DNA of 64,000 nucleotides from the NCBI GenBank assembly GCA_964035545.1, contig OZ037770.1, forward strand, positions 13,506,642-13,570,641, written 5' to 3'. The notes under the pieces were generated by a model. It was not told the origin of the DNA. It worked only from the letters and a program-made list of their open reading frames with translations, and did not search any database. This DNA comes from Bugula neritina (lineage: Eukaryota > Animalia > Bryozoa). The position numbers were made by a program, and so were the translations under genes. Position 1 is the first letter of the stretch, and each line of letters starts with the position of its first letter. This document shows positions 27,078 through 50,547 of the stretch, piece by piece.

Positions 27078-30000
27078 TCAATCCTCTTTCTTTGCCTTTA
27101 CATTTTTCTTTCCAAGCACCTCTTTGAGCTCTTTGTTCATATAATACGGCTTCTCTTCAGACCCATCATTCCTTTCAAGGTCTTCCACTACAGGGCCAAG
27201 GACAAATAATTATATTACATATACTACTACTGCTCCTACTATAACTGCTATAACTGCTATTGCTACTACTACTACTGCTACTACTACTACTATAACCGCT
27301 ACTACTGCTATTGCTACTACTACTACTGCTCCTACTATAACTGCTATAACTGCTACTACTGCTATTGCTACTACTACTACTGCTACTACTGCTATTGCTG
27401 CTACTGCTGCTATAACTACTGCTACTGCTACTACTACTACTGCTACTGCTACTACTACTACTATAACTGCTACTACTATCGCTACTGCTATTGCTACTGC
27501 TACTAATACTGCTACTGCTACTACTACTACTACTACTACTATAACTGCTACTACTGCTATTGCTGCTGCTACTGCTGCTATAACTAGTACTGCTGCTACT
27601 GCTACTACTACTGCTACTGCTATTGCTACTGCTACTAATACTGCTACTGCTACTACTACTACTACTACTACTACTATAACTGCTACTACTGCTATTGCTG
27701 CTGCTACTGCTGCTATAACTACTGCTACTGCTACTACTACTACTGCTACTGCTATTGCTATCGCTACTGCTACAGTTACTACTACTACTTTTACTACAGT
27801 ATTCTATAGATAGATAAACAGATGCCCAGTATACCTACATAAATTGGCAAGTACCTATAGCTCACATTGAATAATAATAAGTTGCAATATACTCACGGAA
27901 ACATAAAAACAATGTGTCAACTGCCATGCCGTACACTGAGAAGAATATGGATGCTATCACATAAGTGGAAACTCCAATCACCTAAGACATTATTAACAAG
28001 GGAATCACAAATGCAGTGTAATCGCACTATTAAAAACAACTACAAATATGGAATTTAATGCAGTTTTAAAAGCAGTGTTTTAATGTAGCAATCTAATGCA
28101 GTTGCCAATGTAACTTTTATGCAATGTAATTTTACATACATTGTAAATTTTGCAACCAATGTTATAATGTAATGCAGTTTTAAATACAAAAATTGCAAAT
28201 ATCATAATGTAATGCACTTTCCAATTCATTCTAATTTCAGATGCAGCATAGTTTCAAACATTAGTGCATCTCACAAACAACTTAGTATATAGTTATGTAT
28301 GCCTTGGTAAAGAACACATTGAAAACTTGTTCATGATTCCTACTTTCTCTATATCAGTTAGTAGATGATTATACTTCATGCTAATCATTGTCCTTATTCC
28401 ACTACAGACTTTGTTTAAAACTTTTAAGCAGAGATAAGATTTATCTGATAATATCTTTTATTTAAGTTCAACCACAATATAGTTTTACCTCTGAAAGCTA
28501 ATACTGTCATTAAATAGTCATTAAAAACCGTTAGCTGATGTTTAACTACATGACATAAAACTGCGCAACCACTCATAACAGAACAACAACTGCTAAAATA
28601 CATAATTTGCTATTTTGAAAGATAACAATTTTTCAGCCTTGTTATATTTGAGTTTTCTTATAATACTACTAACAGCATGAGCAGTGGCTATAGTGGATAG
28701 AAATGGATATAATGGAAATAATACATTCATATCAAACTGTAAACCAGTTGTTTGCATGTAGCAGTGTGTATATTTCATACAATACATCATAGGGTGTAAA
28801 GCTGAAGTATTTAAATTTATGTACGTTCATTTTGGTGCTTCAAATTTGCTAAATTTATCAATGTTCCCATTTTTTTTTCAGCAAATGATGGGTTAGATGT
28901 CAGAGTAAATATATCACGATATGAGAATATACTTACAGTAATTAGAGTGTGTACGTACAATGAAAGGAGAATGGACTTACAGTAATGAGAGAGTGTACGT
29001 ACAGAGAATAGAGAAGGATATACTTACTATAAGGAGAGTGTACGTACAGCAATGAGAGTGTACGTACAGTAATGAGAGTGTACGTAGTCCAGGGTTGGGG
29101 TCAATTACATGTAAATGTAATTAATTACAATTACAATTACATGAAGATTTGTCAATTACAATTACAATTATAATTACAGTTAAAAATAAATGTAATTAAT
29201 TACAATTACAATTACATGGCAATGTAATTAATTACAATTACAATTACTTTTGTTCTCACAAGAAATAAATAGAAGTCACTTCTAGGGTCTAACTACCAGG
29301 GGCAGTGTTGACAGTGGTGAACCTCTTTTATTTTCTACAGTGATACTATAGGGTCATTCCATACCAAATCAACCAACTTTCAAGGGGTCCCACGTCTTTG
29401 TGTCTCAGATTTTGCTCATATTTACACTAAATGAACCTACACATGTTCAGATTACCATTCGTGAATATTTCTGGCCGGACACAAAAACATTTTGAGAAAT
29501 TACTACTTTGGTGAACAAAGGTTGGAAAATATTTGGAGGAAAATTTGTGATTTACACTTTTAGACCAATTTATAAGTAATTTAAAATTTGATTAGGCGAG
29601 TATTTAAAATTTTTCCAAATTTACAAAGATTTGTTCATATTCAATGACTTTGCATATATGCACACAAAGTATTCTGTATATAGTATGTGTTGCTACTAGT
29701 GCAAATTGATAGGTATTGTCAAATCACACAGCAAATTTTAAAGCTCAGTCTAGAAAAATGATTGAGATATAGACGTTTATAGATTAGTCTAAAAGTAGAA
29801 ATCACAAATTTTCCTCAAAATGTTTCTCAACCTTTGTCTACAAAAATAGTCAGTTCTCAAAAGAAATTTGTGTCAGGTCAGAAATACTGTAGAAGAGTAC
29901 TTGAGGCATGTGTAGGTCTATTTGGTGTAAACATGAACAAAATCGGAGACGCAAATAGACGCGGGCAATTCGGTGAGTTAGCATGGAATGACCCTATGCT

Positions 30001-33000
30001 ATATTGACCAAACTATCTGAACTTGTTATTTAACAGTAGGCATTGTAGAAAAAGAAGGAGTTTTTTAAGATTTAAAAGTTTGAAGTAATTGACATGTAAT
30101 TATAAAGTAATTGTAAAAATCAATTACATTAGATATGTAATTAATTACAATTACAATTACAATTACATTTTTAAACCTCAATTACAAATTACATTCAATT
30201 ACTTAAAAAAATGTAATTAATTACAGCCAATTACAATTACAAATTACAATTACCCCAACCCCAACTCTCATTACTGTACGTACTACGTACAGTAATGAGA
30301 GTGTACGTACAGTAATGAGAGAGTGTACGTACAGTAATGAGAGAGTGTACGTACAATGAAAGGAGAATGGACTTACAGTAATGAGAGAGTGTACGTACAG
30401 GGAAGGATATACTCACTATTACAGGAGAGTAGTAGTAGTTGAGATCAAGCTTGAGAATAACATGAGAAAGAAACCCTGGCTTAGCCACGTTTGCTGAGAA
30501 AGTGCAGTATGCAAGAGCAGCTAAAATATACAAGGGTCTATAGTGTCGGTCTACCCAGCAAAGTACTGACAACTCCCAACCAAGTGCTGAAAACTCTCAC
30601 AAGCACTATATTTGTACATGGCTGTTACATAGCTGTTATTCACGAGTCCAATAAAGCACAAAAGTGACGACTGACAATGACAGGAAGCAGATAGAAATGA
30701 TAAAAATGGAAGAGAGAGGAAAGGAGTGTGCAGGTACATTATTCTAAGTTTACGGGTTTTGCTATACAGATATTCCATTTTAACAGCATCGTTTTAGTAT
30801 ATTGTGTTATAATAGTTATTTTGTTGTATTATTATGCAAACACTTTTAATAACCTGAAAAGTTTAAAGCATTAATATTATATCACTTTGAGATCACTTTG
30901 CTTTTAGCTATGATAGTATTAATTTCACACATTTCGCACTTTGCATTCAGCATATGGCCATGTAGTATAGATTGCGCACACATATATAATATCAATCAAG
31001 TTGTATGTGCCTTCATATTTGTATGTCACTTATCTTTAGTTTGAACTTTAACTCAGCCACCATCATGAGATTATTTCATACATTTTACATCAGACTGTAC
31101 TTTTTAGATATCAATTATTGTAGTACTACATTTTAATACTACATTTCCTACTATACACTTGCATAGCTGCATTAAAACTTTGTTAATGCAGAACTTGAAC
31201 TGTGTCTTACTAACTCAATATATTATACTGTGATACATTAAATTAGCAAAATTATACTGGTTGTAGCAATGTGTTGCCTCATGGTGTATTATGGGTTGTA
31301 ATAAACTATAATACTGTATTAAAATTGTATTAAACTGTAATACTGCATTATGATTGTAGTATAGCAATACTGGATCATGATTATAATACAGTAATACGGT
31401 ATTACAGCGTGTATAATACAGTAATACGGTATTACAGCGTGTATAATACAGTAATACGGTATTACAGCGTGTATAATACGGTAATACGGTATTACAGCAT
31501 GTATAATACAGTAATACGGTATTACAGCGTGTATAATTAGTCACAGTATACTCACAATGACTGGTACAAAGAAGAAATTGAGCTCTACTTCAAACTGCTG
31601 AAGGACAGTCAAATGTTTTGCGAGAGTTCCGTTGAAGAAATAGAAACTAAGTACGGCTACAAAAGCAGACGATTCCATCAACAATAAAACAGGAAGTGCA
31701 ACAAAAATGGCAAAAAGCAGCTCATTAAGAATTGAGGATAAATATGGACATGCAACAACATTGGTAAAGCTTTGTTTGCAAAAATAAACTTGACAGTTAA
31801 ATTATCAATTTTCAATCACAAACAGTTTTAACATTAAAAACATGCAATCTTTAAGTATCATTATTGATTACAACAAGCCTGGGTACAACGACCTCAAACA
31901 CAATCATGTATAAAATGTATGAAGATTTAGTAGAAGTCACTGAAATATGCAACTCAAGATTTCAAACAAAATTACAAAAATATTAAGTAATCTTTTGAGC
32001 TACTAAGTTATGTTCACAGGTTTGTAATGAGTAAGTATTTTTAGAGTTTGACAACTCAAAGGTTTAAAAAACTTCTAAAGTTGATCTCCAAAAATTAATA
32101 TTCAATTTAATTTAATTTATATTAATATTAATTTTTTTCAACACCGTCTTTATCTCATTGAAAAGATAGAATTCAATAAGTCCAGCACACTGTTTACACC
32201 CCATTGATAAGTGACAATACTTACTTAGAATGCCTACCACCACCATTTTACTGATAAACAGTAAAAAGTCCGTGACCTTGTCCACTACAGCCACTCTACA
32301 ATTATAAACTGGAAAAGTTCAATAATAATTTACAGCGAAACATTTTATTGAGGTTGTACAACGTAGACATTTACACTCCCAGACTTATACTTAGACCTCT
32401 GATCTTTACCTACATACTTACACCCTAAACCTACACCTACTCTTCACACCTACTACCTAAACATATAACCTAGAGTTTTACACCTACACCTACTCTTCAC
32501 ACCTACTACCTAGACATATAACCTAGAGTTTTACACCTACACCTACTCTTCAGACCTACTACCTAAATATATAACCTGGAGTTTTACACCTACACCTACT
32601 CTTCAGACCTACTACCAAGACTCTTAGAAATATTACGTATAACCTTCACCTATACTGCAGATTTATAAAGTTAACCTATACTATATTTATTCACCTTGAA
32701 CTTAAACACACTATCCATACCATTGAACTGTAGTTTCAGTTCAGTGATCCATACATCTACTTTTTACCATCATAGACATAGATCTACACCTACATGGTAG
32801 AATTTAGAGCTGTCCGTCAACTAGAACTTTCATAGACTATATATCTTAGGCTATGCACTTTGACCTGTAACCTTTACTTTCAAACACCTTTTTATTGAGG
32901 ATAAACACCGCAAGGAAATGTGTTGAAGTTTTGCGACCAACAATCGACACTCGCTATCAATATGACAGCAATGGTTTGCAACTTGAGCAAAAAAATATCA

Positions 33001-36000
33001 TATGTTTATGCTTAAAAATAAAGAAATAAGGTTGAAGAACCAATGATTAAAAGTTTAAAATTGTTAAATTAACTTGCAGCTAGTGTTTTCAGTGTTATTA
33101 TAAATTGGAGATTGTAATCACCAACCTTATAATGTTTCTCATTATCAAGAAGAACGCATCTTTGGCAGATGTGCAGAAGTTCTTTCCGTAAATGGCAATC
33201 TATAACAGAAAGTGAATTATTATTGTGTGGCAGCGTTTCGTGTGAACATGAGATTCTATCCAGCTTATAGAAGAAGCACTAGCATTTCTTCTAACCTTTA
33301 CTTGAAATCAATAATTTGAACGAGTCGTATTTCTGAACAAATGTAACAGCAGTAGGATCTTATTATTCTAAAAGTTCAATAGCGAGAATATTCTTACATC
33401 TATAGCCTACATCGTTTTCAATCAATCAGAGAAAGCAATTAATGAGATTTAGTACCACTATAAGGCATTAAACAAGTCATCATATTTATTACTTTTAACC
33501 TCTGTAACAATAGTCAGTGAGTCTTAATAGATACTCAACTTCTGGAGGTAAAATACTTGGCATCCGCGGGTAAAATAAGTTCAGCATACAATAAGTTCAG
33601 CATACGCAGGTAAAATAACTAGTATCTGCAGGCAAAACACTCAGCCTCTGCAGGTAAAACATTCAACTTCTGCAGGTAAAATACTTAACACCAACAGGTA
33701 AAAAAGCCATTATTTGCAGGTAAAATATTCAGTGCCCGCAGGTAAAATACGCTGCATCTGTAGGTAAGCAAGCTTGGAACTTACCAAAATGTAGGCATTC
33801 TTGTTGATCATCTTCATGAACTTCTCTAGACAGTAGAAACAACACTTGAGACATTTGAGGAAGAACTTAGCCACTGCGTTCTCTGAGCCTTTGAGTTTAG
33901 CGTCTAGATACTCTAAGCCGACACGAATCATCTGTATGATTGCTATAATCAGGGCGCCAAAGGCTATGGAGCCAGTGTGGTAGCTGTAACAGATCATGGG
34001 TGAATGTTTATTTGCCAATAGTTTAGTTATTTTCAAAATAGCATTGAATTTAAACATGTGAGCTTTTAAAGCTACAAAGCACAAACTTCTATTGCAACTA
34101 TATAACTGTTTCTAGCGCATACTAGGTTTGTGCTAGTCAAATAAAGTATTTAATACATCTTCAAATTTATTACATTATATTCATTAATATATCTATTTAA
34201 TTTTATTACATAATAAGTTTTTGTATATCAAAGATACTTTTTTCTTCGAATTTATTGCATTATATATATCCATATAATAACAAATATCTATTTAATTTCT
34301 ACACTTTACAGTCAAGAGTCATAGCATAAAATTTGCAGCCATTACTTAAAAAGTCAGACTTAAAACTAGCATTTCTGTTTTAAATAATTAACACCAAAGA
34401 TATTAAAACCAAAATACTCAAATATAGCCTTTGGTACATACAAAAGTGTTCGGCCGACAGATTTAATAATGGGGAACATGGGCATGTGCTCCTTCTTGTC
34501 AAACGCCCAGTAGTAAGAAGCGAAGGCTCCGGCCAACACCATTTGACCAAATCCTATTATCCAGTTCATCGTCCAGAAGAACATGAATAGCATGTAGAAC
34601 TGGAACACAAGGACAATGATGTTTTAAGTTATGTTATAGAACTCAAGCCAATGTCCCAAGTCTCCATACAAAACTTAGGTAGAATGATGTCTCAAGTCAC
34701 CATACAGAACTCAAGTCGCGTTATAGAACTCAAGCCAATGTCTCAAGTCCTTATGCAGAAAATAGTAAGAATGAACCCATCATAGCAAAAGGATTTTTAT
34801 AAAATGATTAATTTTCACACTCACAGTGATCCAATCACAAAGCGATAAATTTATCTAAAATAAGCTTTAATCACATGACATTTTTCTATTCTACTACCTA
34901 TGCCCTACGACATGTAATCCGCAAGATATTGCTTGTTGTCTATAAAAAAGTCAAATATAGATCATATAATGTACTTTCTGTAGAGCTTAGGATGACGTAA
35001 TAAAATAAACGCAAATTTAAGATATATTCTGTATTCTATAACACAAAATATATGATTCCTAGTCTGAAGTTCATACACCTGAACTTACCTGTAGGTAGAT
35101 TGTATACTTGAGCACGTCATTCTTTACAAAGTTACAAACCTCACCGGCTGCGGTTTGGTTATTTGGGTCACATGGAATGAGATCTACCGGGTTCGACTGC
35201 ACATAAGAGCAAGGAGTTTAATTTATTTATCCATTATTCATTATCCATTATTCATTATCCATTATTCATTATTCATTATCCATTGTTTATGATTATAAAG
35301 GTATTTCAGTTTAAACTTAAATAAGACTGCAGTAGCAAGCTCTTCTTTTAAAAGGCATTAAAAAATTTTCAATTTAGAAAACAAATTTATTTACATGTTG
35401 TAGCTATAAAAAATAAAATCCTAAATACCAGTTACAACAATTGGTTTCAAAAATAAATTAATTTAATTAGTCAGAACCAAATTTAAAACTTCAATAAATT
35501 TAACAAGAATATTATTACTTTATTTCACAGCTCACAGCAAAAACTCTTGCTTTTAAGCACAATCTTTTTTTCAAAATCAATAATAGCACTATTAACAAAG
35601 AAATTTTATAACTGCAACTCAATATGACTAGTAAACTTACAGTAGTTGTGCTCGTAGCTTGGTAATCGTAGCTATCATTTGCTATTGCAGTTAAATTGGT
35701 AACACCGTACACCTGTTTGGTGGTGGAGGCAAGATAAAGGCATGTGGCACCCCAGTAGGCCACCAGGGATAACTCCAGTATAAACGGCCAAATTGGCCAT
35801 AGTAATGTGAACATCATCATTCCAATTGCCCTAAAAAGCACGCCGTTGATGTCTTTAAAACATTCTATTGCATATGGTAAATTATAAAAGCAAGTTTATT
35901 ACAAACTTTTAGCCAAAAAGTTGATTTAGCTATAAAGGTGATAATTCATTATTTCATTAACTTTTTATAATTATTAGCTAGTAATATATAACACTGAGAA

Positions 36001-39000
36001 GTGAGATGTCTATATTACATTACTCAAAGAGTGCAAAGTTTCAGCTACTCAAAAACAAAAACTTCAAAATATGCATAAATAATTAATTAATCACAATTCC
36101 TATTTATCAATTCTAAACAATTGACCAAACGGTTGCCTTTTTGAGGGACAATAAGTAAAGATTATGCATGCCGTATAAGTTTTGGATCAATACCATTGCA
36201 GTGAGCTATAAAAGTTACAAATAATTGCCTGATTAAGTTAAACTAACTGAAACTAAAACTATTACTTCAGAAAACTTATAAACGCAGTTTAGCTACACAC
36301 ATTGTCTGATCTACAACAACTCCAATAATAACTACAACTATTTACCTGCTGCCTTCCTTCACCAAGGCTATAGCAATCATGATACGAGATCTGAGAAATA
36401 AGATGATAAGCAGAAGGATGATGAATATCGTTGCAGACGTACAACCGAAAGCCAGCCACACCTCCTTCACAGTCAGATAGTAGTTGAAATCAGTGGTAAG
36501 GATCCAGCTGTTAGTGTTATTTACATCTTTTTTTAGGTCATAGTACGTCCAGTAGGAGTATCCTGATGCTAGAGTACAGGAAAAGTAGCTACTAACAATG
36601 GTGTCCGGCAGCAATGGTAGAGGCAGCAATGGCGCAAATGGAAAAGTAGGTAAAAATAGCACACTTTCAATATTAGGGTTCTGAGTAGGGTTTAGGTTTA
36701 AGGGTTGAGGGTTTGAGTTTGGGTTTTAGGAAAATTCAACATCGGTGTGCCATTTTTTTCTACTTTTCCATCTGTGTCATTATTTCTTAAAATTACTAAT
36801 AATGATTAGGCCTTAGTGCAAATCACTTGGTATAGGTAATATATATATTATTAATGAAATAATAGCCAAGCAATGTAGCATGACATGTTGAACATTGTTC
36901 TAAGACTTGAAGTTTCATAGTTTTGATTCATACAGAGATGCAGCAGCTTACAGATAGAATTTTGAAGTACTAGTACATGTTGTGTCTCATTATAGACCGA
37001 GAGTTTAACATTATTGATCTATAGAAGTAGGGTTGGGTACAGATACACACATTCTATCATATGAGAAACTACTTACCAAATCCAAATATAGCAAAGAAGA
37101 GAGCGATAGTGACCCACACGATAATACCTGCTAGCCACCTCATTAGGACTATCCACAGGAAACAAACTATCATTGATAGCCCCAAACCACTACAACATGT
37201 AAACGCAACTACAACTATACATTCTGTTATTGTTAGAGTAGTACTATTAATCTATAATATTAATAAAAACCTATCAATTCTAAATGATTTTTAAAAATAA
37301 TGCACAATGTGCATAAAACTCAAAATTTAAGGATATTCAAAAGGGTTTTACTACTTTCTATTAGTATTAGACCCATACAGTTTACGCCAGCTGAACAGAG
37401 GGTTTACATTGGGTCTATGAATTAAGTTATAAGTGTGGGGTTATCTTTCCTTACCGTTGGTACCCGATGATTGATAATGTAACTAAAAAGAATACTTATA
37501 GTTGAATTCATTGTAATTTAACAGATAACAATTAAACTTACAATAAAATAAACCATTTAGAATTTTCAACATCCGAGAAAACTTTTTCTCCGTAACTTCG
37601 AAATTGCAATAGCTTTGTGACGAATCTGAAAACAGGAAAAGGAGATTTAGTGATAAGTTCTGAAAAAAAGTGGAGATTGAGAGTTTGCTGAAAAGCATAT
37701 AATAAACTATTTATAGTTTACAGTTTCTCCAAATTTTGATACAGTTGCTTAGTTCAACTCAGGGAAATTAGGTAGTGAGTGCACTGACATACTTCCCACT
37801 TGCTATTATTAATAAATTATTCAAGCATATTAAAATCTATTCTACAAGCAAAAATTCTTACTAATATAAAACAAATAGATGCAAAAAATATATCCAAACT
37901 ATCGAATACACTTTAAAGGGGTATGCGTCATGAATAAATATATGCACTTTAAATATATGCACAAAAATACTGCACTATAAATGCATGCACTATAAATACT
38001 ATATTATAAATACCGTAGCATAAATACTGTACTATAAATGTTGTAGTACAGGTATCGTACTTATATAAAGACTATATATACTTGCCATCAATAATAAAGA
38101 CTCTATATATTTGCTATCAATAATAAAGACTATATTATATACTCACTGTACATGTAGAATGCTATAAATAGTAAAGACTATACATATACTTACGCAGAAC
38201 CATCTAGAATGCTATCAATTGTAACTGTTTTGTTCTGGGAGTCAACAATATCAGATGTGCTGTTGTCACTACCAACTTTCTCAGCCAGGGATTGGGCCGT
38301 GTCAATACCCTCCGTTATAATAGCAGGCAAGCATCTGCCCAGCACTACCAAACATAAAACCAACGAACTTATCAAAGTAGGCAGTATTTTTGAAGTCATC
38401 TTTTTAAATGTTTTGTTTTTTCACTTGGAAAACTGAAAATAATATCTACAAGAGTGTAAATCACAATTGATAAAATCTCCCTAGCAGACATTTAATTGAT
38501 ATGTTTTATTAGACATTTAATTGCATGAAGCCATTAAAAGTTAATATAATGAAGGCAAAGAAAACACAAACTGCAACTTTTTTAACTTAAAAAAGCACTT
38601 CAAGTTGACATATAACAATAAATAAAGTGAATCCTAATACTAAAAATATTACCTTCTTTCTGTGGGTAGTAATAACCAGCACAAAGGTCATCATCAATGA
38701 GCTCTTTTAGCTTTGCTGATGAGGCATATGCATTGTCTAATGGGTTGATACCTGTCATAAGAAGTACGGATCATTGTATATTTGTGCTAGAAAGAAAATT
38801 GTGTCATTTATTATAAAAAATTTGTATCATTTCAAAGTTTCCATCCTGGTGATAAGCCCTGATATTCTAAGAGAGAGGTAATAATTGTGTATGCTGTGGT
38901 ACAGAAACAACTATGGTGTTCTCCCGGCATTATCAATGGTTTTACTGAACTCATGACCTATTGTACACCGGTCTTTAACCTCTAAACCATGGATGCCCCT

Positions 39001-42000
39001 ATACAGCATTGACAATGCAGCAATTCAATTTAAAAATTAACTCCTATACTTTCTATTAATATCTTGAAATTCAGCTTCAGACACAAATTTAAGTTCTATT
39101 GGCATTGAAATTTTTTGATTGTTGAAATTAGAAAAAGAGAATGACCTGCCAATAGAGCATTAGGCTCACTATGAGACAAGCTTGCTATTATGACATGTGA
39201 GATAAGGTGTGTGCATGTGCTATGCCTGTCACCTGATAGCCATACGTTATCAAAACAATATAATATATAATTTACTGGAGTATATAGCAGTCATAATAGC
39301 TTCAGAATCATAACAGATTCACGTAAGCTTTTCTCACCGTAGTCACATATCATGGCCGCCCTTCCTGTTTCCCTTAGGCTGTCATCAATCAGTGATATTC
39401 CGCTGGTTTTTTCTTGCAATTGCTCTTTTCCATACTGCAAAAAGATTGATCAACATAAAATTATATGGTTACAGATTTTAGATCTCTGCTCAAATAGAGC
39501 AAAATACTTTTGCAAATATCATTTAATATAATTTAAAGCCATAAAAATTAATCAGCTAATTAAACTCTAATAGCATAAAATACAGAAAATTTCAACAGAA
39601 TTTACACAATACTAGTCAATGCCTAAAACAGGAATAATAAGAAATGTAATTAAACAGTTTCGAAGTGTTATTTGGTATGCTGTACTTACAAACCTGTATT
39701 TACCATTTGGCTAGAGGATAACACACGGCACATGCATTATTTCAAGGAGAATTTACCTGCTATATTGGCTTATAAATTTACAATAAAGCTAGTCTGTTGC
39801 AAGTTGAACTGTGGGAGATAAAAGCTCGATGTATCCTTTATACAGTGACATGTATATAGAGCAATAACCTCTGTGTTAATATAACAATGTTGTGGTTTTA
39901 TAAGTCAATAATATTATCATCGTAATCCTAGCAACAAATTAGCTGTCAGCCTAACAGAAAAACTCCCGAGGCTGGGAAAACCTTTTACTTCCTGCTGTTG
40001 CAGAGCTGTAGAACTTTCTAGTCTTTCTATACTAGTTCTGTTTTGATTTTAACGTAAAATGTTTCTGCCAGTAACTTTTAATGATATTTAAAATAAAACA
40101 TCTCAAAACCCAGTCATCAAACTATTTCTTTAAACGCGGGATATCAAAACTCTTTACGATTAGATATGAGTTCAAATGCTTTGGATCAATAAGTTTTACT
40201 ACATATATTTTGTTGAGTTTTCACTATTTTATCTTTTAATTTACTAAAGACTTATTGTCTCACTTTACATCCTATACTTTGAAATCCATTTTAATTCACA
40301 GTGAAAACTGTTTTGTAGCAAATGTACAATCAGAATTGCATCTTTGTTACTTGAAAGTGTATTTTAAATATCAACAACAATCCTATCTCAGTTCAAAATA
40401 ACTTGGGTATGCCTTCTACACTATATACAGTATATTACAACAAGGATACCAAGTGAGACAGTTTTATGATATCAAAGTGAATAGTGGATGTGAGGAAAGA
40501 TGAACTGGCCAATGAGAAGAGATGGCACAGCCAAAGAGCAAACCAGTTTAGGTTTGACAGACAGAGAATGTTTAGTGTAATTTAATTCCTAAAAAGTAAT
40601 TTTTGATGTAAATAATTTTTGGATAAAAGTTATCATTATCCTATAAGTTGGAACATGATGTAATCAAATCGAATATGACCAACTCTGAGAAGGTTTGTTG
40701 ATATTTATAGATGAAGTAAAATGAATAAACTCTACTTAAATGCATATGCTGGGTATTTAATGTATAATATAGCCTGTTATTACCAGCTTGATACTACGAA
40801 GGTCATATCACAACCAGATATGTGATAAAGTTTTACTTTAACACTCTTAGATTATCTTAAAATTGTTTACACAAGATTCAAGTGGTTACATCAGATGTAA
40901 TATGTACATGTAATTCTTATATTAATTATCACAGGGGACAAAAAGCATTCCAAACATGAAAAAGAAAGTTTATAAGAGGTAACATGCTATAAATTCCAAT
41001 GATACATTTATATGTACATGTATAGTTATATGATTATATGGGTGTCCAGCAAAAGTGGCACAGGTAAAAGTGGTAACGACAATAATGGCACAAATAGAAA
41101 AGTAGGAAAAAATAGCACATTTTCAATATTAGTGTTTCGGGGGCTTGGAATGGGTGGTTTAGGTTTGGAGTTTGAGAAAATTTAACATCAGTGTACCATT
41201 TTTTCCTACTTTTCCATTTGTGCCATTATTACCTGTGTCGTTTTTACTTGTGCCATTCTTACCTGTGAAATTTTTCTCTAAAGTTGATTATATGTATATA
41301 TACTAACCTGCACTGCCCATGTCCAGTATTCACTCGGACAATCCGTCACACAGATCTGCTTTGTAGGACACCCGAGGGTCACAATACCAGGTCCAACTTT
41401 AGCACAGTCTATCAGGTCGAAGAAGAACAAGTTCGGTTTGTCTCTAAAACACAGCAATTTATACATCATTTAAGTAGAGATATCTATGCCGGTGATAAAA
41501 AAGCTATCAGAAAAGATGTTCAAATATTGCTCAAAACTTGGGATTGAGTATCTAAACATTGATATGCACATTCAGAAACTTACTAAAGATCTTGCCATCA
41601 AATATATAATAGACAATGATCATTTTATCAATAACTTTCTGAGTCAATGCCCCTCTGGAAGACATCTCACGTTAAATATAGAGAGGCATGGGGCAGAGAT
41701 AGCTTCTTGCGACATCTTGTAAATACTTTAAACGAGCTTCTTTCTTAAATCATCCAACAGATTTCTGATTTTTTTCCAATTTTGTTAATGTCTACTTAAA
41801 TTATAGCTAGTATTTACACTGAATTTCGCAACATGTTGTCATGTCTGTGATATGCAGTAAATAAATAAATCAATCAATCAAAGCTTAGTCTGTACTGCAT
41901 GTCTACATAATGCAACAAGATAATGTATATATAGTCAAGCTGCTTACTGATATTCACCATGTCCACAGAGATTCCCAGCACTATCTGAAGGGTACAGGAG

Positions 42001-45000
42001 GAGCAAAGGATCACCATAGCTGTATGCTGTAAACAAAACATAGCTGTTGTAATATGCCGGGCATCTTATGTAGATAGGAGAACTTACGTAATGTTGTAAA
42101 TGAAGCTACCACATTACGACATGCATTACGTTTTGAAGTGACAAGTTTCTGACTGTTATGATGAAGTGGAAAATAATGGAAAGATTGAAACACTATATGC
42201 ATGACTCCTAAATCTGCAGCTTCTATGAGTCATTTCTTACTATATTATATATGATGAGGAAATAAGGAGCAGCCGTGGTCTAGGGGTTAGAGCACTGGCT
42301 TAGTAAACACTAAGTCAGTGGTTTGGATCCCAAAAAAGGCTATTGGTGATTTTAGGAAGGGAATTTAGTCATAATTGATCCTTTGCCAATAAAAAGTCCT
42401 TATTTACTTGAAAAAAACTATTTCCATCAGGGGTTCTCACAAGGATAGCTACTATAAACTAGCGTGAGTTTTTATATAATCAGAAATGTTTTAATGTAAT
42501 ATTATGAAATGCATGTACTGTTCTGTAAATTCTTAGTTTTTAGACTATAGCATGAAGCCAAAGGTAGCAGCCATCTGCCCTTAAAATTTTCAGAAGTCAT
42601 GAGGATTTCAAGCTAATGCCTGCACTTTTACAGTAATTGGAAAAATATTGATTATATAAAAAGCCAAGTAATTGTTAAGATGGATAACATATAATAAACG
42701 TCCAGCAAAGCTCTCTTGGAGGGAGAAGGTTTACCGTACCGAAGAATCCAACAACAGCCATCCCGAGCACGCATATTAGAAACAGGATGCAGCAAATGAT
42801 ATCTGTACATCCTCTGTCGTTGATGGGGCCGTTGAATGTAGGGTCATACTTCTTTGGCGAGCCTACAAGTGTGTAATGAGATGTAGCAAATATAATATAC
42901 TCAGTCACAATAACGTAGCAGCTTGCTGAAATGTGGAAATTTATGTAAAGTTAAGTTAAAAAGCTACCTTACTCGTGGTGATGATTTATGTTGAGTATAT
43001 GAATGTATTTTATTGGTACATATTCAGTTATATATACATTTTTTTATATTTTCGTCAGCGTTTAATTTAAAAATAATTAGTTGTAGAATTGTGATTAACA
43101 AATAAAAGGTTTTTCTTACAAATTTGGGTAAACGATAATTACTAATAATCATTTTCAATTTCTAGGATCAGCACATTATTGCACACTTAATTCTGAAAGA
43201 CATAACTACTAAATAAAACATCAGCAGTGCTAGGACTGGCAAAGTTGCACAGAAAAGCTCTAAAGTTGACGAAGGTATTAATTCGAATTAAATCAAGCGT
43301 ATCTTTCAAGCATTGTTTCACACAGAATTTCCTAATCAACTAAGCATGTACAAGTATTATTAAGACTGAAAGAAAGCTGTTTTAGCAACCAAGTTTTTAT
43401 TGGCACTATACATAGGTATTAAGTGGAGTGTGTATAGATTCCACCAGGCTACTTAACTACGGGCCATAATATTTGTATGGTAAAGCAATAGAATCAATAA
43501 CTACATAAAACAATAAATGACCCAAGAAAATAGCAACAAATAAAGGTTGGACAATACACATTGTTTATGTGCATTCAGTCAATATCAATATCTCATTATT
43601 ACTGAGCCTTCTACATTCTAACTTCTCCCATCTACTGAGCAGTGAACAAATAAATATTAACTAAAACTGAAATTTTATTGAAGTTGATTAAGAGCACTTT
43701 AAATGTCACCTGCATGTTTGCCTGTTCATTAATTACCTGTGTACTTGTCTGTGCATTTTTCTATGTGTTTACCTGCATGCTTACCTGTGCATTTACTTGC
43801 ATGTTTACCTGTGCGTTTACTTGCATGTTTACCTGTGCATTTACCTGCGAGTGAGTCAGCAGTATTTACTGCGTCAAATGTTGAACATCATTACATCACT
43901 ACAAAGTTCATATCACATACTTTATCTAACGAATCTAAGCTATAAACTGGGCCTAGTCCACAGGTATACCCTATTATTTACTGTTTGATAGGCAGTCAAG
44001 GAAATAGAAAAGATAAAGTAATGCAAGATAATACCTAGCTAGTAACTGTGTGGTTAGAGATTTTGAGGAAGCTATGTGACATTTACTTCATAATAATATT
44101 ATACCTAGAGACCACATTTTGCTAATCATATTTGCGGCAAGTTGGTAAATTGATGTCCCAATCTATTAACCTTGTCGATATGATAAATTATATCCTTATT
44201 TTTACTAGCAGTTCACCAAATGAAAAGAATAAAACACATTTAATAAGTATCATTATGCAGTACTCAAAATGCTTTATTACTGTTTATTTACATGTATTTA
44301 GACTTGCTGAGGCTGATGTAACATTGTTGAAAGGCAGTGCTTCATAACAGGGGAGAAAAATTTAAAATCATTAACTTTATTATTAAGCAGAAAGTCAAAA
44401 AGTTCTTATTGATATTGCAAACACTATAAAGAAACCCATAAGAAATGTGACCATACATGGCAATGCTACAAAGCACATCCTGTTTACCTGCACTAGAACT
44501 GGTAAACGAAGCTATTATAATTCACTGTTTCCTGTACTTAATATGGTCAGAGTTTATTTGTTCACTTAGGAGCAGTAGCGAAGAAATTGAGATAGCCTAA
44601 GTTCTGTAATTTTATTATTAAACTTTGGTTTGGGGCTTGGGTTGAAAATCTTGCCAGAACATAACTTCTTTTGCAACATTTTTAATCTAGAACACAGGCT
44701 TTTCTCAATTTCTCTTTCACTGCATCTACCTCTAATTTTTTGGAAATTGACTTTAAATTGACTCTACACCACAAAACACTGACGCACACTGGGCAACCCT
44801 ATTCTTAGATTAAAACTGAAGCTAAAATTTAGAGACTGATGAGGAACTACAGATAGAGGCCATGTTTCAAGTAGTATACATGCTCTTGAGATAAATATAG
44901 TACGTCATTATGGGTGAGGTCTTGTCATCGCTATTAATATTCTTTTATTGTAGTATTCAAAATTGATGAACTGATAAAAGCTATTATTTAGCAACTGTGA

Positions 45001-45813
45001 GCTAGCATTACCTGTAGCGATTGTAAGCTGTAGGCTTTAAGCAGTTAAATCTGGAAGTATATTCAACTTGCACAGTTAAAGCTGTGGAAACATTAGCAAG
45101 GTGTTAGTCCACATTCGGCTCTAATTCTTGAATCAATTTGTATAAAAGATTATTTATAATGTACACAATGTAATTCTTTTTCTACTCTAACAAAGGTGTT
45201 CACAATGGGTTTATATAACATTGTGAAGGTTGGAGTTCCAAGGACTAGTTATAAGACTATAGCTATTGTATGCTTACTTTCATATGAACAAAACTTATGT
45301 ATAGGCCATAGCGAAACTAAAATAAAGCAGCCATGGTTTATTAGTCAGAGCATTCATTGGCTTAGTAACACAAGGTCAGTGGTTTGAATCCCAGTAAAAG
45401 GCCATTGGTGGTGTTAGGAAGAGCATCCAGTCATAATTTCTCTTTTGTTTCAACAGAAAACAAGTCCTTAGCTCTCTTTAAAAAACCTTTCTATCAGAGG
45501 TTCGTACCAAGATGGCAACTATAAGCCCACTAGAGTTATGACTGAATTTCCAATTATTGATAGTTTTAGCATGAAAACCTGCCTTTCTATAGAATAGTAA
45601 AGCTCTAAATTTGTAATTTACCAAATAAAATAAGTATAGAGTCACTTTTGAGACTACCGGACAGCTCAATGGTCACATGACTCAATACAACGGTCACATG
45701 ACCCAGTACAATGTGGTCACATGGCTCGATGACTTACCATATTTATTGTCTTCTCCATCTTTCTGGTTTTGAGTAGCTGTATCAGCGTCTTCCACTTCCC
45801 CCTTCCCACACAT
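27078..45813 (-). CDS. SLC44A2: Choline transporter-like protein, SLC44/CTL2-4-5 type (~758-759 aa, 19 exons per isoform)
   Basis: Exons 45813-45738, 42862-42740 ([25 protein letters not shown]), 42026-41948, 41443-41308 ([11 protein letters not shown]), 39434-39338, 38751-38653, 38344-38194, 37625-37542, 37189-37077, 36568-36346, 35830-35641, 35196-35089, 34599-34442 ([10 protein letters not shown]), 33983-33785 (YHTGSIAFG...[12 protein letters not shown]), 33199-33126 ([10 protein letters not shown]), 32295-32225, then either 31656-31556 or 30520-30417, then 27981-27897 ([10 protein letters not shown]), 27187-27078 ([17 protein letters not shown]). The family is secure; the A2/A4/A5 paralog label is not resolvable. 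Confidence 0.93.
27222..27797. repeat. (CTA/CTG)n degenerate trinucleotide array filling most of the last SLC44 intron
   Basis: Read directly from the sequence. Confidence 0.95.
28928..29086. repeat. GTACGTACAGTAATGAGAGT minisatellite, left part (continues at 30264-30410)
   Basis: The same units flank both sides of the inserted DNA element. Confidence 0.85.
29090..30263. mobile_element. Non-autonomous hAT-like DNA element with (AATTAC)n subterminal repeats
   Basis: Left end CAGGGTTGGGGTCAATTAC and right end AATTACCCCAACCCCA share an inverted GGGTTGGGGT. AATTAC arrays lie at 29103-29247 and 30086-30253. No transposase ORF. Confidence 0.7.
29349..29996. mobile_element. Foldback MITE nested inside the hAT-like element
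   Basis: Terminal inverted repeat TAGGGTCATTCCAT ... ATGGAATGACCCTA, followed by ~230-bp imperfect inverted arms (e.g. GAGGAAAATTTGTGATTT vs AAATCACAAATTTTCCTC). Confidence 0.8.
30417..30520 (-). CDS. SLC44 alternative exon 17B (mutually exclusive)
   Basis: Bounded by TTTTAG and GTGAGT, 104 nt, phase 1 to 0; encodes [34 protein letters not shown], which carries the family LNYY.P motif. Confidence 0.8.
31382..31537. repeat. 30-bp minisatellite (GTATAATACAGTAATACGGTATTACAGCGT)x5
   Basis: Read directly; adjacent to the exon 17A donor. Confidence 0.92.
31556..31656 (-). CDS. SLC44 alternative exon 17A (mutually exclusive)
   Basis: Bounded by TAG and GTGAG, 101 nt, phase 1 to 0; encodes [33 protein letters not shown]. 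Confidence 0.85.
32405..32618. repeat. ~53-bp tandem repeat (TTTTACACCTACACCTACTCTTCACACCTACTACCTAGACATATAACCTAGAG)
   Basis: 3-4 units. Confidence 0.85.
33545..33770. repeat. ~21-bp degenerate repeat with GCAGGTAAAATA core
   Basis: About 9 degenerate units next to an SLC44 donor. Confidence 0.75.
36599..36785 (+). mobile_element. Small MITE-like foldback repeat, copy 2
   Basis: TGGTGTCC...AATGGAAAAGTAGGTAAAAATAGCACACTTTCAATATTAGGGTT...GTGTGCCATTTTTTTCTACTTTTCCAT. Confidence 0.7.
38841..38999 (-). mobile_element. tRNA-derived SINE copy 3 (degenerate)
   Basis: Decayed reverse-complement match to the head (CATCCATGGTTTAGAGGTTAAAG) and tail (TATCAGGGCTTATCACCAGGATGG). Confidence 0.55.
41041..41268 (+). 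mobile_element. Small MITE-like foldback repeat, copy 1
   Basis: ~38-bp near-perfect inverted arms (41081-41118 vs 41193-41230) around a G/T-rich GGTTTAGGTTTGG core; homologous to 36599-36785 and 8225-8432. Confidence 0.75.
42266..42470 (+). mobile_element. tRNA-derived SINE copy 4
   Basis: GGAGCAGCCGTGGTCTAGGGGTTAGAGCACTGGCTTAGTAAACAC...CATCAGGGGTTCTCACAAGGATAG...GCGTGAGTT. Confidence 0.85.
43708..43850. repeat. 12-bp degenerate repeat (TTTACCTGTGCA/TTTACTTGCATG)
   Basis: Read directly from the sequence. Confidence 0.8.
45326..45545 (+). mobile_element. tRNA-derived SINE copy 5
   Basis: AGCAGCCATGGTTTA...GGCTTAGTAACACAAGGTCAGTGGTTTGAATCCC...GGCCATTGGTGGTGTTAGGAAGAGCATCCAGTCATAATT. Confidence 0.8.
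45671..45724. promoter_or_regulatory. Three tandem GGTCACATG(AC) E-box/M-box-like motifs at the start of SLC44 intron 1
   Basis: Two perfect GTCACATGAC copies plus GTCACATGG, spaced ~21-23 bp apart. Confidence 0.35.
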
Positions 45814-47328: not shown

Positions 47329-49819
47329 ATGGCGGCTGTCAAGGTAAGTCCTGTTGTTAGGGTTATGTAAGGACAATCATTTTAAAATAATCATAACTAC
47401 CTTATTACCTAATAAACCGCAACAAGTCATTTAAACTGCTGCATGATCTTTTAAGAAATACTCTAAAATCCTTATGACTGATAATATTGGCTTCTGTGCG
47501 CGCTGTTCAAAGTCCAATTAATAATCATAATGTCTTTCTAACCGGCAACGCCTACCTTTTTAGTTTTCATTTCATCTTAATCTTTGCCTTGCCCTTTGTT
47601 CTTTTTATTTGGCTTCAAGCTAATGTACTGACTTTGATATAATTTCAGTTGTTTTTATTTTAACTTTGCGAAACGTAATGTTATTTGAAACTGAGTTGCT
47701 ATATTCATGTTGATGTTTTAACTTCCAAGTTCCAACACTACAATAAGTATAACTATAAGTTAGTTGAATATCTTAGCCAAGTGATAATATATATTTTTAT
47801 GTTTATATAATAAATATATTTTTACTCGAGTTACTCCTGTCTAAGCTGATAGTGCTAAGCTATAAAGCTTCTAATCAGTTCACTGCTCACCCTAAGGCTA
47901 ATACTAATAGCATATTCAGTATTTGCTAAACTTTACTCTGTGCGAGTAAACCTGGGCACCAATAGTTTCAAATGAGGAAGTCAAAGTTTTGTACACTAAT
48001 GCAAAATGATATATTCCTCAATAGCCCATCTAATTCCTTGTCACCATGCTAACTCACCTACACATAATGTGCATTTTTAAATAGAATACCTGCAGGGAAA
48101 TTTACCTAAAACTAGTAAAATGTGACTCCTTGAATGAGACTAGTTGTCTAGACTCTAGAATATTATACATACCTAAATTGTTTTTATATGATTGTTTGAT
48201 CATTATATATCATTAAACAATATTATTTAAAATAAATATGTGACCATTTTATTATTTAGTATTATTGTTTATTTGTTTCATAGGTTCTTATTAAAATGTT
48301 TGTAGTATCGTGTATATGTTGGTTTGATCTAGGTATGCAGAGGGTTGCACAATTTTGTTAGATCGGCTACAGGGGGACAACTCCGTGCTCTCTCTTCCAC
48401 TGCTAGAAAACAATCTGGCTACAACTTTGGTATGTAATAATAAGACAGGTTTTGAATATTATATAATGACTTGGCCCATCAAACAGATACGGATTAATAC
48501 ACTTCTGTTGTAACATGTGTTGAAGAAAAATGGCTCTATAAGCAGCTTCGAGTTGGGATGAATGAGTGCAGTAGTTTGGGTTCTTGAGTTTTAAGATTCC
48601 TAAGCTACTGCTCTCATTCACTTCCAACTCGGAGCTGCTGATAGAACCATTCTTCAAGAAAAGGTAAAAGTGTATCCACTGTTTCTGTGTTCCCAGACAT
48701 AACACCTGAGCAACAGGAGTACCAGGAGCTTGCCAGGAAGTTCACAGCTGAGGAGATCATTCCAAGAGCAGCTCACCATGACACCACTGGGGAGGTAACT
48801 CCTTGTAGTTTACAATACAATAGTACAAGATTTGTCATTACTAGAATGATAGGCTTTATTATGAAGACCTGGTCAGTTGCTCATTCATATTGTACATTTT
48901 ATATGTAGATTGTGTTTATGAATTTACTTTTATTTCAAATCTTTCAGTCTATCCTTTAAAAGAGCAGTATGTCTTATATCTTGCTATTATAAAATGTTTG
49001 ATAAGCCTGTGTCCCGCATTCTTTAATGCCAGTTCTTTGCCTATTTTCAGTACCCCCGTGCCATCATAGAAAAGGCGTGGGAGCTGGGTCTAATCAACAC
49101 ACATATTCCTACAGAGTATGGCGGGCTGGGTCTTGGAGCTCTCGATAGCTGCATCGTCACTGAGCAGTTAGCCTATGGATGTACCGGTATTCAGGTGAAC
49201 TCAGCGTCATGCATTTGTGTCTGGTATAAGTTGTTCATTTTATTATATAATATACACCTTGAAGCTTGTCTCAGGAGTTGTCTTGTCTATAATTGCATTG
49301 TCTATAATGAAGAACAAAACTACTAAAATTCAGAAAATGACCGTAAGTTAAATTTGAACCAATAATTTTACCTGAGGATAAAGCTTTTCAGGACAGATAA
49401 AAAGTTTAGCTTTGAATAAAATATCGAAAGATATAAATAGAATGTTTCAATACACATCAACCTATAAATTTTATATCTATACTGTTTATTTTTATAATGC
49501 ATTCTGTGAATGTAATAGTGTTATTATATGAATGTTATATTGTTATACGGTATCTTATTCAGACAGCTATAGAGGCAAACTCTCTCGGGCAGATGCCAAT
49601 CATAGTGGCCGGTAATCATGAGCAGAAGGAGAAGTACCTGGGGAGGATGATAGAGTCTCCCCTACTGTGTGTGAGTAGTAGTGATAGTCATAGTAGTAGT
49701 ACTAGTAGTAGTAGTCGTAGTACTACTACTACTACTAGTAGTAGTAGTAGTAGCAGCAGTAGTAGTACTAGTAGTAGTAGCAGTAGTAGTAGCAGTAGTA
49801 GTACTAGTAGTAGTAGTAC

Positions 49820-49866
<47 letters not shown>

Positions 49867-50547
49867 ATAGTACTAGTAGTACTAGTAGTAGTAGTATTAA
49901 TACTACTAGCGGTAGTAGTGGCAGTGGTAGTAGTAGTAGTAGCAGCAGCAGCAGTAGTAGTACTATTAATGGTAATTAGTAAACAACTCTTATACTGCTG
50001 CAGGCATACGGAGTTACTGAACCAGGCTGTGGCTCAGATGTGGCTGGAATTCAGACTAAAGCCGTGAAGAAGGGAGACGAGTGGATATTAAACGGGCAGA
50101 AGGTAGGGTTTGGGGTTGTTAGTGTAGATATTCACTATACAGCAGTGAGCGTAGTCAGTAGTGCCTGTTCCAGTGTTGAAGTGGAGTAGAAAGGATGTGT
50201 ATTGCTCATATTTTATTTAATTTATACACTTGTCATCAATCATAGTTTGTAACTAAAATTTGCAAAATTGTTAAAAATAAACAGTTTTGAAACATGATTT
50301 CTTGCCATAGTAGTTTATCCTAGTCATACGTTACCAATTCACTACATATTTATTCTTTAGATGTGGATCACTAATGGTGGAGTCGCCAATTGGTATTTCG
50401 TCCTTGCCAGGACAGCCACTGATCCGAAGACACCCCCTGGCAAAGCATTCACAGGGTACCTACTGCAATTACTACCACTACTAGTACCACTACTACCATT
50501 ACTACCAGTACTACCATTACTACCAGTACTAATACTACTACTACTGT

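What the first reader, a model, noticed from the sequence alone, without database searches (positions are those of the whole stretch)
30417..31656. Mutually exclusive duplicated exons in the SLC44 choline transporter-like gene
Seen in sequence: two homologous exons lie between VVVGIL and [11 protein letters not shown]. Exon A (101 nt) encodes VLSFYFFNG...[11 protein letters not shown] and exon B (104 nt) encodes ALAYCTFSA...[11 protein letters not shown]. Both are phase 1 to 0 with canonical splice sites and open frames. Including both, or skipping both, shifts the frame, which is the signature of mutually exclusive splicing. They encode the end of the penultimate TM, the last loop and the start of the final TM (family motif F.FF....LNYY.P). 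The two versions are strongly diverged yet both intact. Inference: two transporter isoforms with different late-TM/loop chemistry. I am not aware of such an exon pair being described for SLC44 genes.
Basis: partly seen in the sequence, partly recalled or inferred. Interest (0 to 1): 0.78.

Follow-up and report, generated by a model that had tools for sequence, protein, structure and literature searches.

The report
Swappable exon pair in CTL2 gene
A choline-transporter-like (SLC44/CTL2) gene, likely from a moss animal (bryozoan), carries two intact alternative copies of one exon that are likely spliced one-or-the-other to swap the outer tip of the protein's last membrane hairpin, and predicted isoforms of moss animals, lamp shells, ribbon worms and a tardigrade show the same swap.

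Summary
Observation confirmed. Exon A (31656-31556, 101 nt) and exon B (30520-30417, 104 nt) are homologous, AG/GT-bounded and phase 1 to 0. Either one alone gives an open 758/759-aa protein; both or neither shift the frame. The gene is a CTL2/4/5-type SLC44, 70% identical to that of the bryozoan Watersipora. Contigs of a relative's run join exon A on both sides, skipping B. No B junction was seen. A second genome (L007, 62% identical protein) has both exons at the same lengths, phase and order; L001 has only A. RefSeq-predicted isoforms swap this same segment in 5 of 28 gene groups: Watersipora, Lingula, two nemerteans and a tardigrade. The exon covers the outer end of TM9, the extracellular loop and the start of TM10, and holds none of the mapped pocket residues. 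Two 2026 studies found no choline transport by CTL1, so 'transporter isoforms' is doubtful. Human catalogues list SLC44 duplicated exons only at other positions. Verdict: new member of a known kind, with an unusually wide spread; single ancient origin is unresolved.

The parts
31556..31656 (-). Alternative exon A, 101 nt, phase 1 to 0; residues 662-694 of the predicted protein (outer end of TM9, extracellular loop, start of TM10)
   Evidence: Sequence; joined on both sides in run X1 contigs; 15-24 of 33 residues identical to the A exons of four relatives
30417..30520 (-). Alternative exon B, 104 nt, phase 1 to 0; residues 662-695
   Evidence: Sequence; a 104-nt counterpart at the same place in L007; 34-residue counterpart in Watersipora isoform X1; 7 of 34 positions shared without gaps by all three; no spliced contig seen
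32225..32295 (-). Upstream constitutive exon (71 nt): inner half of TM9, with the equivalents of CTL1 D537, F541 and K544
   Evidence: joint 31656/32225 in X1
27897..27981 (-). Downstream constitutive exon (85 nt): most of TM10, with the equivalent of CTL1 D595
   Evidence: joints 27977/31552 and 27187/27897 in X1
27078..27187 (-). Last coding exon, to the stop codon (cytoplasmic tail)
27078..45813 (-). Whole coding span of the SLC44/CTL2-type gene: 19 exons per mRNA, all introns GT-AG, 758 aa with A or 759 aa with B. The start codon at 45813 is inferred.
   Evidence: Exon chain joined in a script, no internal stop, 70% identical to Watersipora P0003/P0121; PF04515 on exon 33785-33982
30521..31555 (-). 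Intron between A and B, 1035 nt, with a 30-nt minisatellite just after the A donor; likely too long for steric exclusion

Best explanation
Exons A and B are an old tandem duplicate that is likely spliced one at a time, giving two predicted full-length CTL2 proteins that differ only in the predicted outer tip of the TM9-TM10 hairpin. Shown: the frame logic; A-in, B-out joints in a relative's contigs; both exons at identical lengths in a genome 62% identical in protein. Inferred: A is the common form and B a minor or tissue-restricted one. Inferred: exclusivity is imperfect and is enforced partly after splicing, because the double-inclusion product has a premature stop 87 nt before the last junction. 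Inferred: the swap leaves the polar pocket unchanged and alters the rim of the outward-open bowl, tuning lipid entry, membrane shaping or a partner contact rather than a choline site. Among those functional readings I put lipid or partner tuning at about 0.6, a change in transport kinetics at about 0.2 and no functional difference at about 0.2.
For: Frame test. X1 joints 31656/32225 and 27977/31552 at GT-AG ends, not present in run X2; the loose end at 31552 reads the next exon. L007 has exons of 101 and 104 nt in the same phase and order, and its gene is sister to the clade holding the window, Watersipora, P0005 and L001 (FastTree 99 for the five, 91 for the four). Predicted isoforms swap exactly this segment in Watersipora, Lingula, Tubulanus, Lineus (three versions) and Paramacrobiotus. 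The odd tails of Lingula X6 and tardigrade X4 fit the second exon read out of frame at 20 of 20 and 13 of 13 codons, with 0 of 5000 shuffles matching, so those exons are tandem and phase 1 to 0, and double inclusion is modelled there. In X1, exon B keeps its frame and both splice sites; its 4 amino-acid changes all fall in loop codons 11-20 and its 2 silent changes in the helix part. The model of P0003 (mean pLDDT 84.7) puts the exon (656-688) across the end of helix 629-663, two short helices and the start of helix 684-722. It matches only CTL1 and PNS1 at E<=0.001. CTL1 D537, F541, K544, H584, E591 and D595 all align outside the exon.
Against: Exon B of the window is far from the family consensus (3.5 bits against 18.5 for A; 8.7 and 9.3 bits on the two class profiles) and is only 12 of 35-36 columns identical to the other B exons. 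Its changes in X1 (4 replacement, 2 silent) cannot be told from neutral (binomial p 0.45; Fisher p 0.11 against 2 and 10 in four constitutive exons, whose list was cut short by the tool). A neutral exon would survive that short divergence intact in 2-24% of simulations. L001 has lost B, or is a paralogue without it, so B is dispensable in some lineages. The isoforms from other species are RefSeq predictions whose read support I did not see. The structural and lipid data are for human CTL1, a distant paralogue; one paper in my search listing (PMC8081925, listing only) reports ethanolamine transport by CTL1 and CTL2.
Confidence: 0.8

Rival explanations
1. The pair is ancestral, but in this lineage exon B is decaying and is no longer used, on the way to the state seen in L001.
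For: Window B is the most diverged B exon and has lost the start motif shared by Watersipora X1 and L007. Replacement rate in X1 is 0.052 per site against 0.005 in the listed constitutive exons. L001 lacks B.
Against: B has the same 104-nt length as in L007, an open frame, a donor identical to A's and 7 of 34 positions shared with both other B exons. All 4 replacements in X1 avoid the helix ends; the loop boundary was drawn after seeing the data.
Confidence: 0.13
2. Exon B acts mainly as a poison exon: added after A, it shifts the frame and lowers CTL2 output, and B-only mRNA is incidental.
For: Double inclusion puts a stop 87 nt before the last junction. RefSeq has double-inclusion models in Lingula and the tardigrade.
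Against: A poison exon need not keep an open frame, helix motifs and a 34-codon length across three lineages. B-only proteins are predicted in Watersipora. In Lingula and the tardigrade the second exon is the family-typical one.
Confidence: 0.05
3. On history only: the cross-phylum pattern is recurrent, independent duplication of one exon (a hot spot), not a single ancient event.
For: Lineus has a recent extra duplicate (X2 with X3, 99/93). Tubulanus X1 and Lineus X4 exons score near zero against nearly all others. A tardigrade-only pair is not rejected (p-AU 0.31), nor is a clade of all bryozoan A and B exons (p-AU 0.19). Watersipora X1 scores better on the long-class profile (35.0 against 26.9). 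Amphioxus isoforms swap the neighbouring exon instead. PMC9741552 (passages) reports that most events shared by human and fly arose by convergence.
Against: The Lingula long exon groups with the annelid Owenia exon (94/77; 19 of 31 identical), and a Lingula-only pair is rejected, narrowly (p-AU 0.044, one of six tests, uncorrected). Bryozoan A exons group with annelid exons and the tardigrade long exon (95/82, long branch). The order long-then-short is the same in Lingula and the tardigrade.
Confidence: 0.45

Closest known systems
Tandem duplicated exon substitutions of human SLC44A2 and SLC44A5 (PMC4494069 Table and supplement file 2; PMC8373072 supplement, events 193-195; PMC9741552 supplement)
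   Same: Same gene family; homologous exons used one or the other; old (listed as Chordata or Gnathostomata).
   Different: Those events are N-terminal or C-terminal cytoplasmic pieces. This one is internal and covers membrane and extracellular residues of the last hairpin. The human mutually-exclusive-exon list adds only an SLC44A5 candidate near TM1 (PMC5740500 supplement).
Homologous mutually exclusive exons in general (PMC7954323 abstract; PMC9741552 abstract and passages)
   Same: Fold kept, surface residues near a functional site changed, same phase and similar length.
   Different: Few are reported to reach back to the bilaterian ancestor (21 human events in PMC9741552). Here the event spans four invertebrate phyla, and no swap was found in the vertebrate clusters checked.
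Human CTL1/SLC44A1 (PDB 7WWB, 9QU3) and yeast PNS1 (9F63)
   Same: Same fold; equivalents of E490, K491, D537, F541, K544 and D595 are kept in the window protein.
   Different: The window protein is CTL2/4/5-type. Its TM9-TM10 segment is 33-34 residues against about 22 in CTL1; N533, H584, E591 and W487 are D, S, G and Y here. Lipid binding is shown for CTL1 only.

Membership tests
SLC44 / CTL (PF04515), CTL2/4/5 type | PF04515 domain above the curated cut-off | tested here: met
   93 bits for one window exon, 351 bits for P0003, cut-off 26.9
SLC44 / CTL (PF04515), CTL2/4/5 type | CTL1/PNS1 fold | tested here: met
   The model of the Watersipora orthologue P0003 (not the window protein) hits 9QU3, 7WWB and 9F63 only, at E<=0.001
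SLC44 / CTL (PF04515), CTL2/4/5 type | Orthology to named CTL2-like proteins | tested here: met
   70% identity to Watersipora and one clade with it, FastTree 100, alternative exon removed. No CTL1/CTL3 outgroup was in the tree.
Choline transporter (function) | Direct choline or ethanolamine transport | not testable with these tools
   Disputed for the family: none found in PMC13160678 or bioRxiv 10.64898/2026.10.02.755950
Homologous mutually exclusive exons | Adjacent homologous exons in one intron interval | tested here: met
   also in L007
Homologous mutually exclusive exons | Same phase, similar length, canonical splice sites, frame broken by both or neither | tested here: met
Homologous mutually exclusive exons | Each exon found alone in transcripts | tested here: inconclusive
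   A alone: joined in X1 contigs. B alone: no junction seen here; predicted in Watersipora X1.
Homologous mutually exclusive exons | Conservation of both exons in relatives | tested here: met
   Both in L007 (DNA) and Watersipora (proteins); B intact in X1; B absent from L001
Homologous mutually exclusive exons | An exclusion mechanism (steric, spliceosome class, RNA pairing, decay) | tested here: inconclusive
   Intron of 1035 nt and GT-AG ends argue against steric and U12 mechanisms; no conserved pairing found; double inclusion gives an early stop
Homologous mutually exclusive exons | Tissue- or stage-specific switching | not testable with these tools
   Only two runs, both contigs, were listed

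The most novel reading that the evidence does not exclude
The exon was duplicated once in the protostome ancestor, into a long-loop copy followed by a family-typical short-loop copy. It has been kept as a splice switch in bryozoans, brachiopods, nemerteans and tardigrades, while annelids now use the long copy and molluscs and chelicerates the short one. The switch remodels the rim of the lipid-entry bowl of CTL2, giving a natural pair of variants with which to test what these supposed transporters really do.
Probability: 0.35. Interest if true: 0.72.

Novelty: new member of a known kind. Interest (0 to 1): 0.52.

Why it matters
What SLC44/CTL proteins do is an open question again: two 2026 studies found no choline transport by CTL1, and one proposes phospholipid binding and membrane deformation. 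Several phyla keep two versions of just the outer TM9-TM10 tip while leaving the pocket alone. That marks an unstudied surface as functionally tuned and supplies matched isoform pairs for lipid-binding, trafficking and partner assays. It is also a candidate for a very old or repeatedly evolved exon switch that human- and fly-centred catalogues would miss.

Tried and rejected
No genome is held for the window. No RNA holder was listed as such; X1 is 'RNA?' by guess and from a relative with roughly 5-10% differences. No contig joined to exon B was listed in X1. Contigs drop rare variants and the tables were cut, so this is not evidence of absence; B lies only in an unspliced contig. Contig depths (about 590-630 for spliced, 63-70 for unspliced) are not used to rank isoforms. 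The single-sequence fold failed (pLDDT 41.8); only the A-type Watersipora isoform was then folded with an alignment, and no B-type model was made. The first gene tree used a mis-joined window protein and was discarded; it was redone with FastTree only. Exon B alone found 0 hits among 1.84 billion representatives, which is uninformative for 34 residues. An inverted repeat flanking exon A (31075-31098 with 31900-31923, 79%) was rejected as a splicing structure because X1 skips 31042-31347. A scan for long-range duplexes timed out and was not repeated. No conserved difference in loop charge between A and B types; B loops have 1-4 prolines against 0-1, and slightly lower helical moment, on only 3 and 5 exons. 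The N-G-T sequon of exon A is in 3 of 5 A exons and sits at the membrane exit, so it is probably unused (own knowledge). Long and short exon classes were defined after seeing the alignment; leave-one-out placed 38 of 39 training exons, and Owenia failed. No earlier scan findings. Insects and nematodes were not surveyed, apart from one beetle model. The fly identifier searched was recalled, not taken from a call. No complex was predicted.

Full report
Observation. On the minus strand, exon A (31656-31556, 101 nt) and exon B (30520-30417, 104 nt) lie between a 71-nt exon ending at 32225 and an 85-nt exon starting at 27981. Both have AG before and GTGAGT after, and both are phase 1 to 0. Either alone gives an open frame; both together stop at the end of B, and neither stops inside the next exon. 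The two peptides align with score 37, reached by 0 of 5000 shuffles. A family profile finds no other duplicated exon of this gene in the window.

The gene. Nineteen exons with GT-AG introns give 758 aa with A or 759 aa with B, without internal stops; the start codon is inferred. The nearest named relative is CTL2 of Watersipora subatra, a cheilostome bryozoan, at 70% identity. With the alternative exon removed, the window gene groups with it (FastTree 100). The source is therefore likely a bryozoan.

Transcripts. Two runs were listed, both as contigs. X2 matches the window as DNA. X1 is RNA only by the tool's guess and comes from a relative, but it shows joints at intron ends that X2 lacks, including 31656/32225 and 27977/31552: A in, B skipped. 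The loose end at 31552 reads the next exon. Exon B appears in X1 only in an unspliced contig, with frame and splice sites intact and 6 listed substitutions. Four are replacements, all in loop codons 11-20, and two are silent. These counts do not differ from neutral (p 0.45), and the replacement rate is about ten times that of the four constitutive exons listed. So use of B is not shown here.

Conservation in relatives. A metagenome scan gave 64 loci, of which 30 were inspected. Two reach this region as close genomic relatives. L007 has exons of 101 and 104 nt, in the same phase and order as the window; its protein pieces are 62% identical to the window protein, and it is sister to the group holding the window, Watersipora, P0005 and L001. 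L001 has A only, between introns of about 75 nt. Watersipora isoforms X2 and X1 differ only in this segment, 33 against 34 residues. A exons are 15-24 of 33 identical to the window's; B exons are about one third identical, with 7 of 34 positions shared by all three without gaps. A dead exon would be unlikely to keep its exact length and frame over that distance (inference), although B clearly evolves fast and can be lost.

Other phyla. Across 28 gene groups built from cluster members (at most 15 listed per cluster), 5 swap this segment: Watersipora, Lingula, Tubulanus, Lineus (three versions) and the tardigrade Paramacrobiotus. The other 23 (molluscs, echinoderms, chordates, horseshoe crabs, a flatworm with only truncated models, a second Lineus gene) do not; this reflects annotation, not a search of their DNA. 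These are RefSeq predictions whose read support I did not see. The truncated tails of Lingula X6 and tardigrade X4 fit the second exon read out of frame (20 of 20 and 13 of 13 codons; 0 of 5000 shuffles). So in both animals the exons are tandem, phase 1 to 0, with the longer one first. Outside the bryozoans each such gene has one family-typical 29-residue exon and one longer, diverged one. The exon tree (33 columns, 19 of 37 inner branches open) groups bryozoan A exons with annelid exons and the long-branched tardigrade exon (95/82), and the Lingula long exon with Owenia (94/77). A Lingula-only pair is narrowly rejected (p-AU 0.044); the other five clade tests reject nothing. The diverged nemertean exons cannot be placed. 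A single protostome origin and recurrent duplication both remain open.

Structure and mechanism. An alignment-based model of P0003 (pLDDT 84.7) matches CTL1 and PNS1. The exon spans the last two turns of TM9, two short loop helices and the first residues of TM10, about residues 552-573 of human CTL1. CTL1 is described as an outward-open bowl of three hairpins, TM5-TM10, with phosphatidylethanolamine bound through D537 and D595 and a polar network including F541, K544 and H584 (bioRxiv 10.64898/2026.10.02.755950, abstract and sections 6, 7, 8, 10; PMC13160678, abstract and sections 8, 11). All of these align to the flanking constitutive exons. The swap therefore likely changes the rim, not the pocket. 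Both papers report no choline transport by CTL1, though earlier work reported it. An insect Ctl2 is reported to interact with chitin synthase (seen only as a passage and citation in PMC9894549). I infer tuning of lipid access, membrane shaping or a partner contact. How exclusivity is enforced is unknown: the 1035-nt intron argues against a steric block (own knowledge), no conserved pairing was found, and double inclusion gives a stop 87 nt before the last junction while skipping both gives one 20 nt before it.

Comparison with what is known. Human catalogues list SLC44A2 N- and C-terminal and SLC44A5 C-terminal events (PMC4494069, passage, abstract and supplement file 2, file 1 not searchable; PMC8373072, supplement; PMC9741552, passages and supplement) and an SLC44A5 candidate near TM1 (PMC5740500, supplement). 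PMC7954323 (abstract; 6 supplements searched) had no SLC44 entry. Searches for SLC44 or choline transporter-like with mutually exclusive or duplicated exons, for bryozoans, for lophotrochozoans and for a recalled fly gene id showed no report of this exon pair in listings. The library lacks most subscription papers, bioRxiv supplements are closed, and fly and worm databases were not seen, so an entry there cannot be excluded.

Verdict. A real, conserved duplicated exon pair, most likely mutually exclusive (0.8), with a 0.13 chance that B is decaying in this lineage. It is a new member of a known kind. Interest 0.52, for the spread over four phyla and for the handle it gives on a disputed protein function.

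Noticed in passing
Proteins P0266, P0300, P0323-P0334 (amphioxus); equivalent to window 32225-32295: Branchiostoma isoforms swap the exon just upstream (inner half of TM9). The position equal to CTL1 D537, a lipid-headgroup residue, is N in one form and V in the other. A second, different alternative event in the same helix, and one that does touch the pocket.
   Followed up: partly
Proteins P0110, P0173, P0174 (Lineus longissimus): Three alternative versions of the exon in one gene, two of them a recent duplicate pair.
   Followed up: partly
L001:3380-3480: A relative with very short introns has exon A only; B is lost or this is a paralogue.
   Followed up: yes
window 28900-30430: A minisatellite starts at the exon B donor and resumes about 1.2 kb downstream, including a near-copy of the donor region at about 29010-29042. 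Between lies a high-copy element with long inverted arms (29397-29575 and 29777-29955), likely a non-autonomous transposon.
   Followed up: no
window 30521-30778: The 260 nt upstream of exon B align in run X1 with about 7% differences, against about 10% plus many gaps upstream of A, and include a pyrimidine-rich stretch near 30680-30727; possibly a splicing element, difference not tested.
   Followed up: no
window 27220-27800: The last intron is mostly a trinucleotide-type satellite, giving long low-complexity open frames on both strands.
   Followed up: no
window 49437-49976 (+): A long frame contains a stretch that looks like an exon of an acyl-CoA dehydrogenase (recalled resemblance, not searched).
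   Followed up: no
Fish and frog proteins, e.g. P0275 and P0290: The known alternative C-terminal exons of vertebrate CTL2 are visible among the hits; the window gene has a single last exon.
   Followed up: partly
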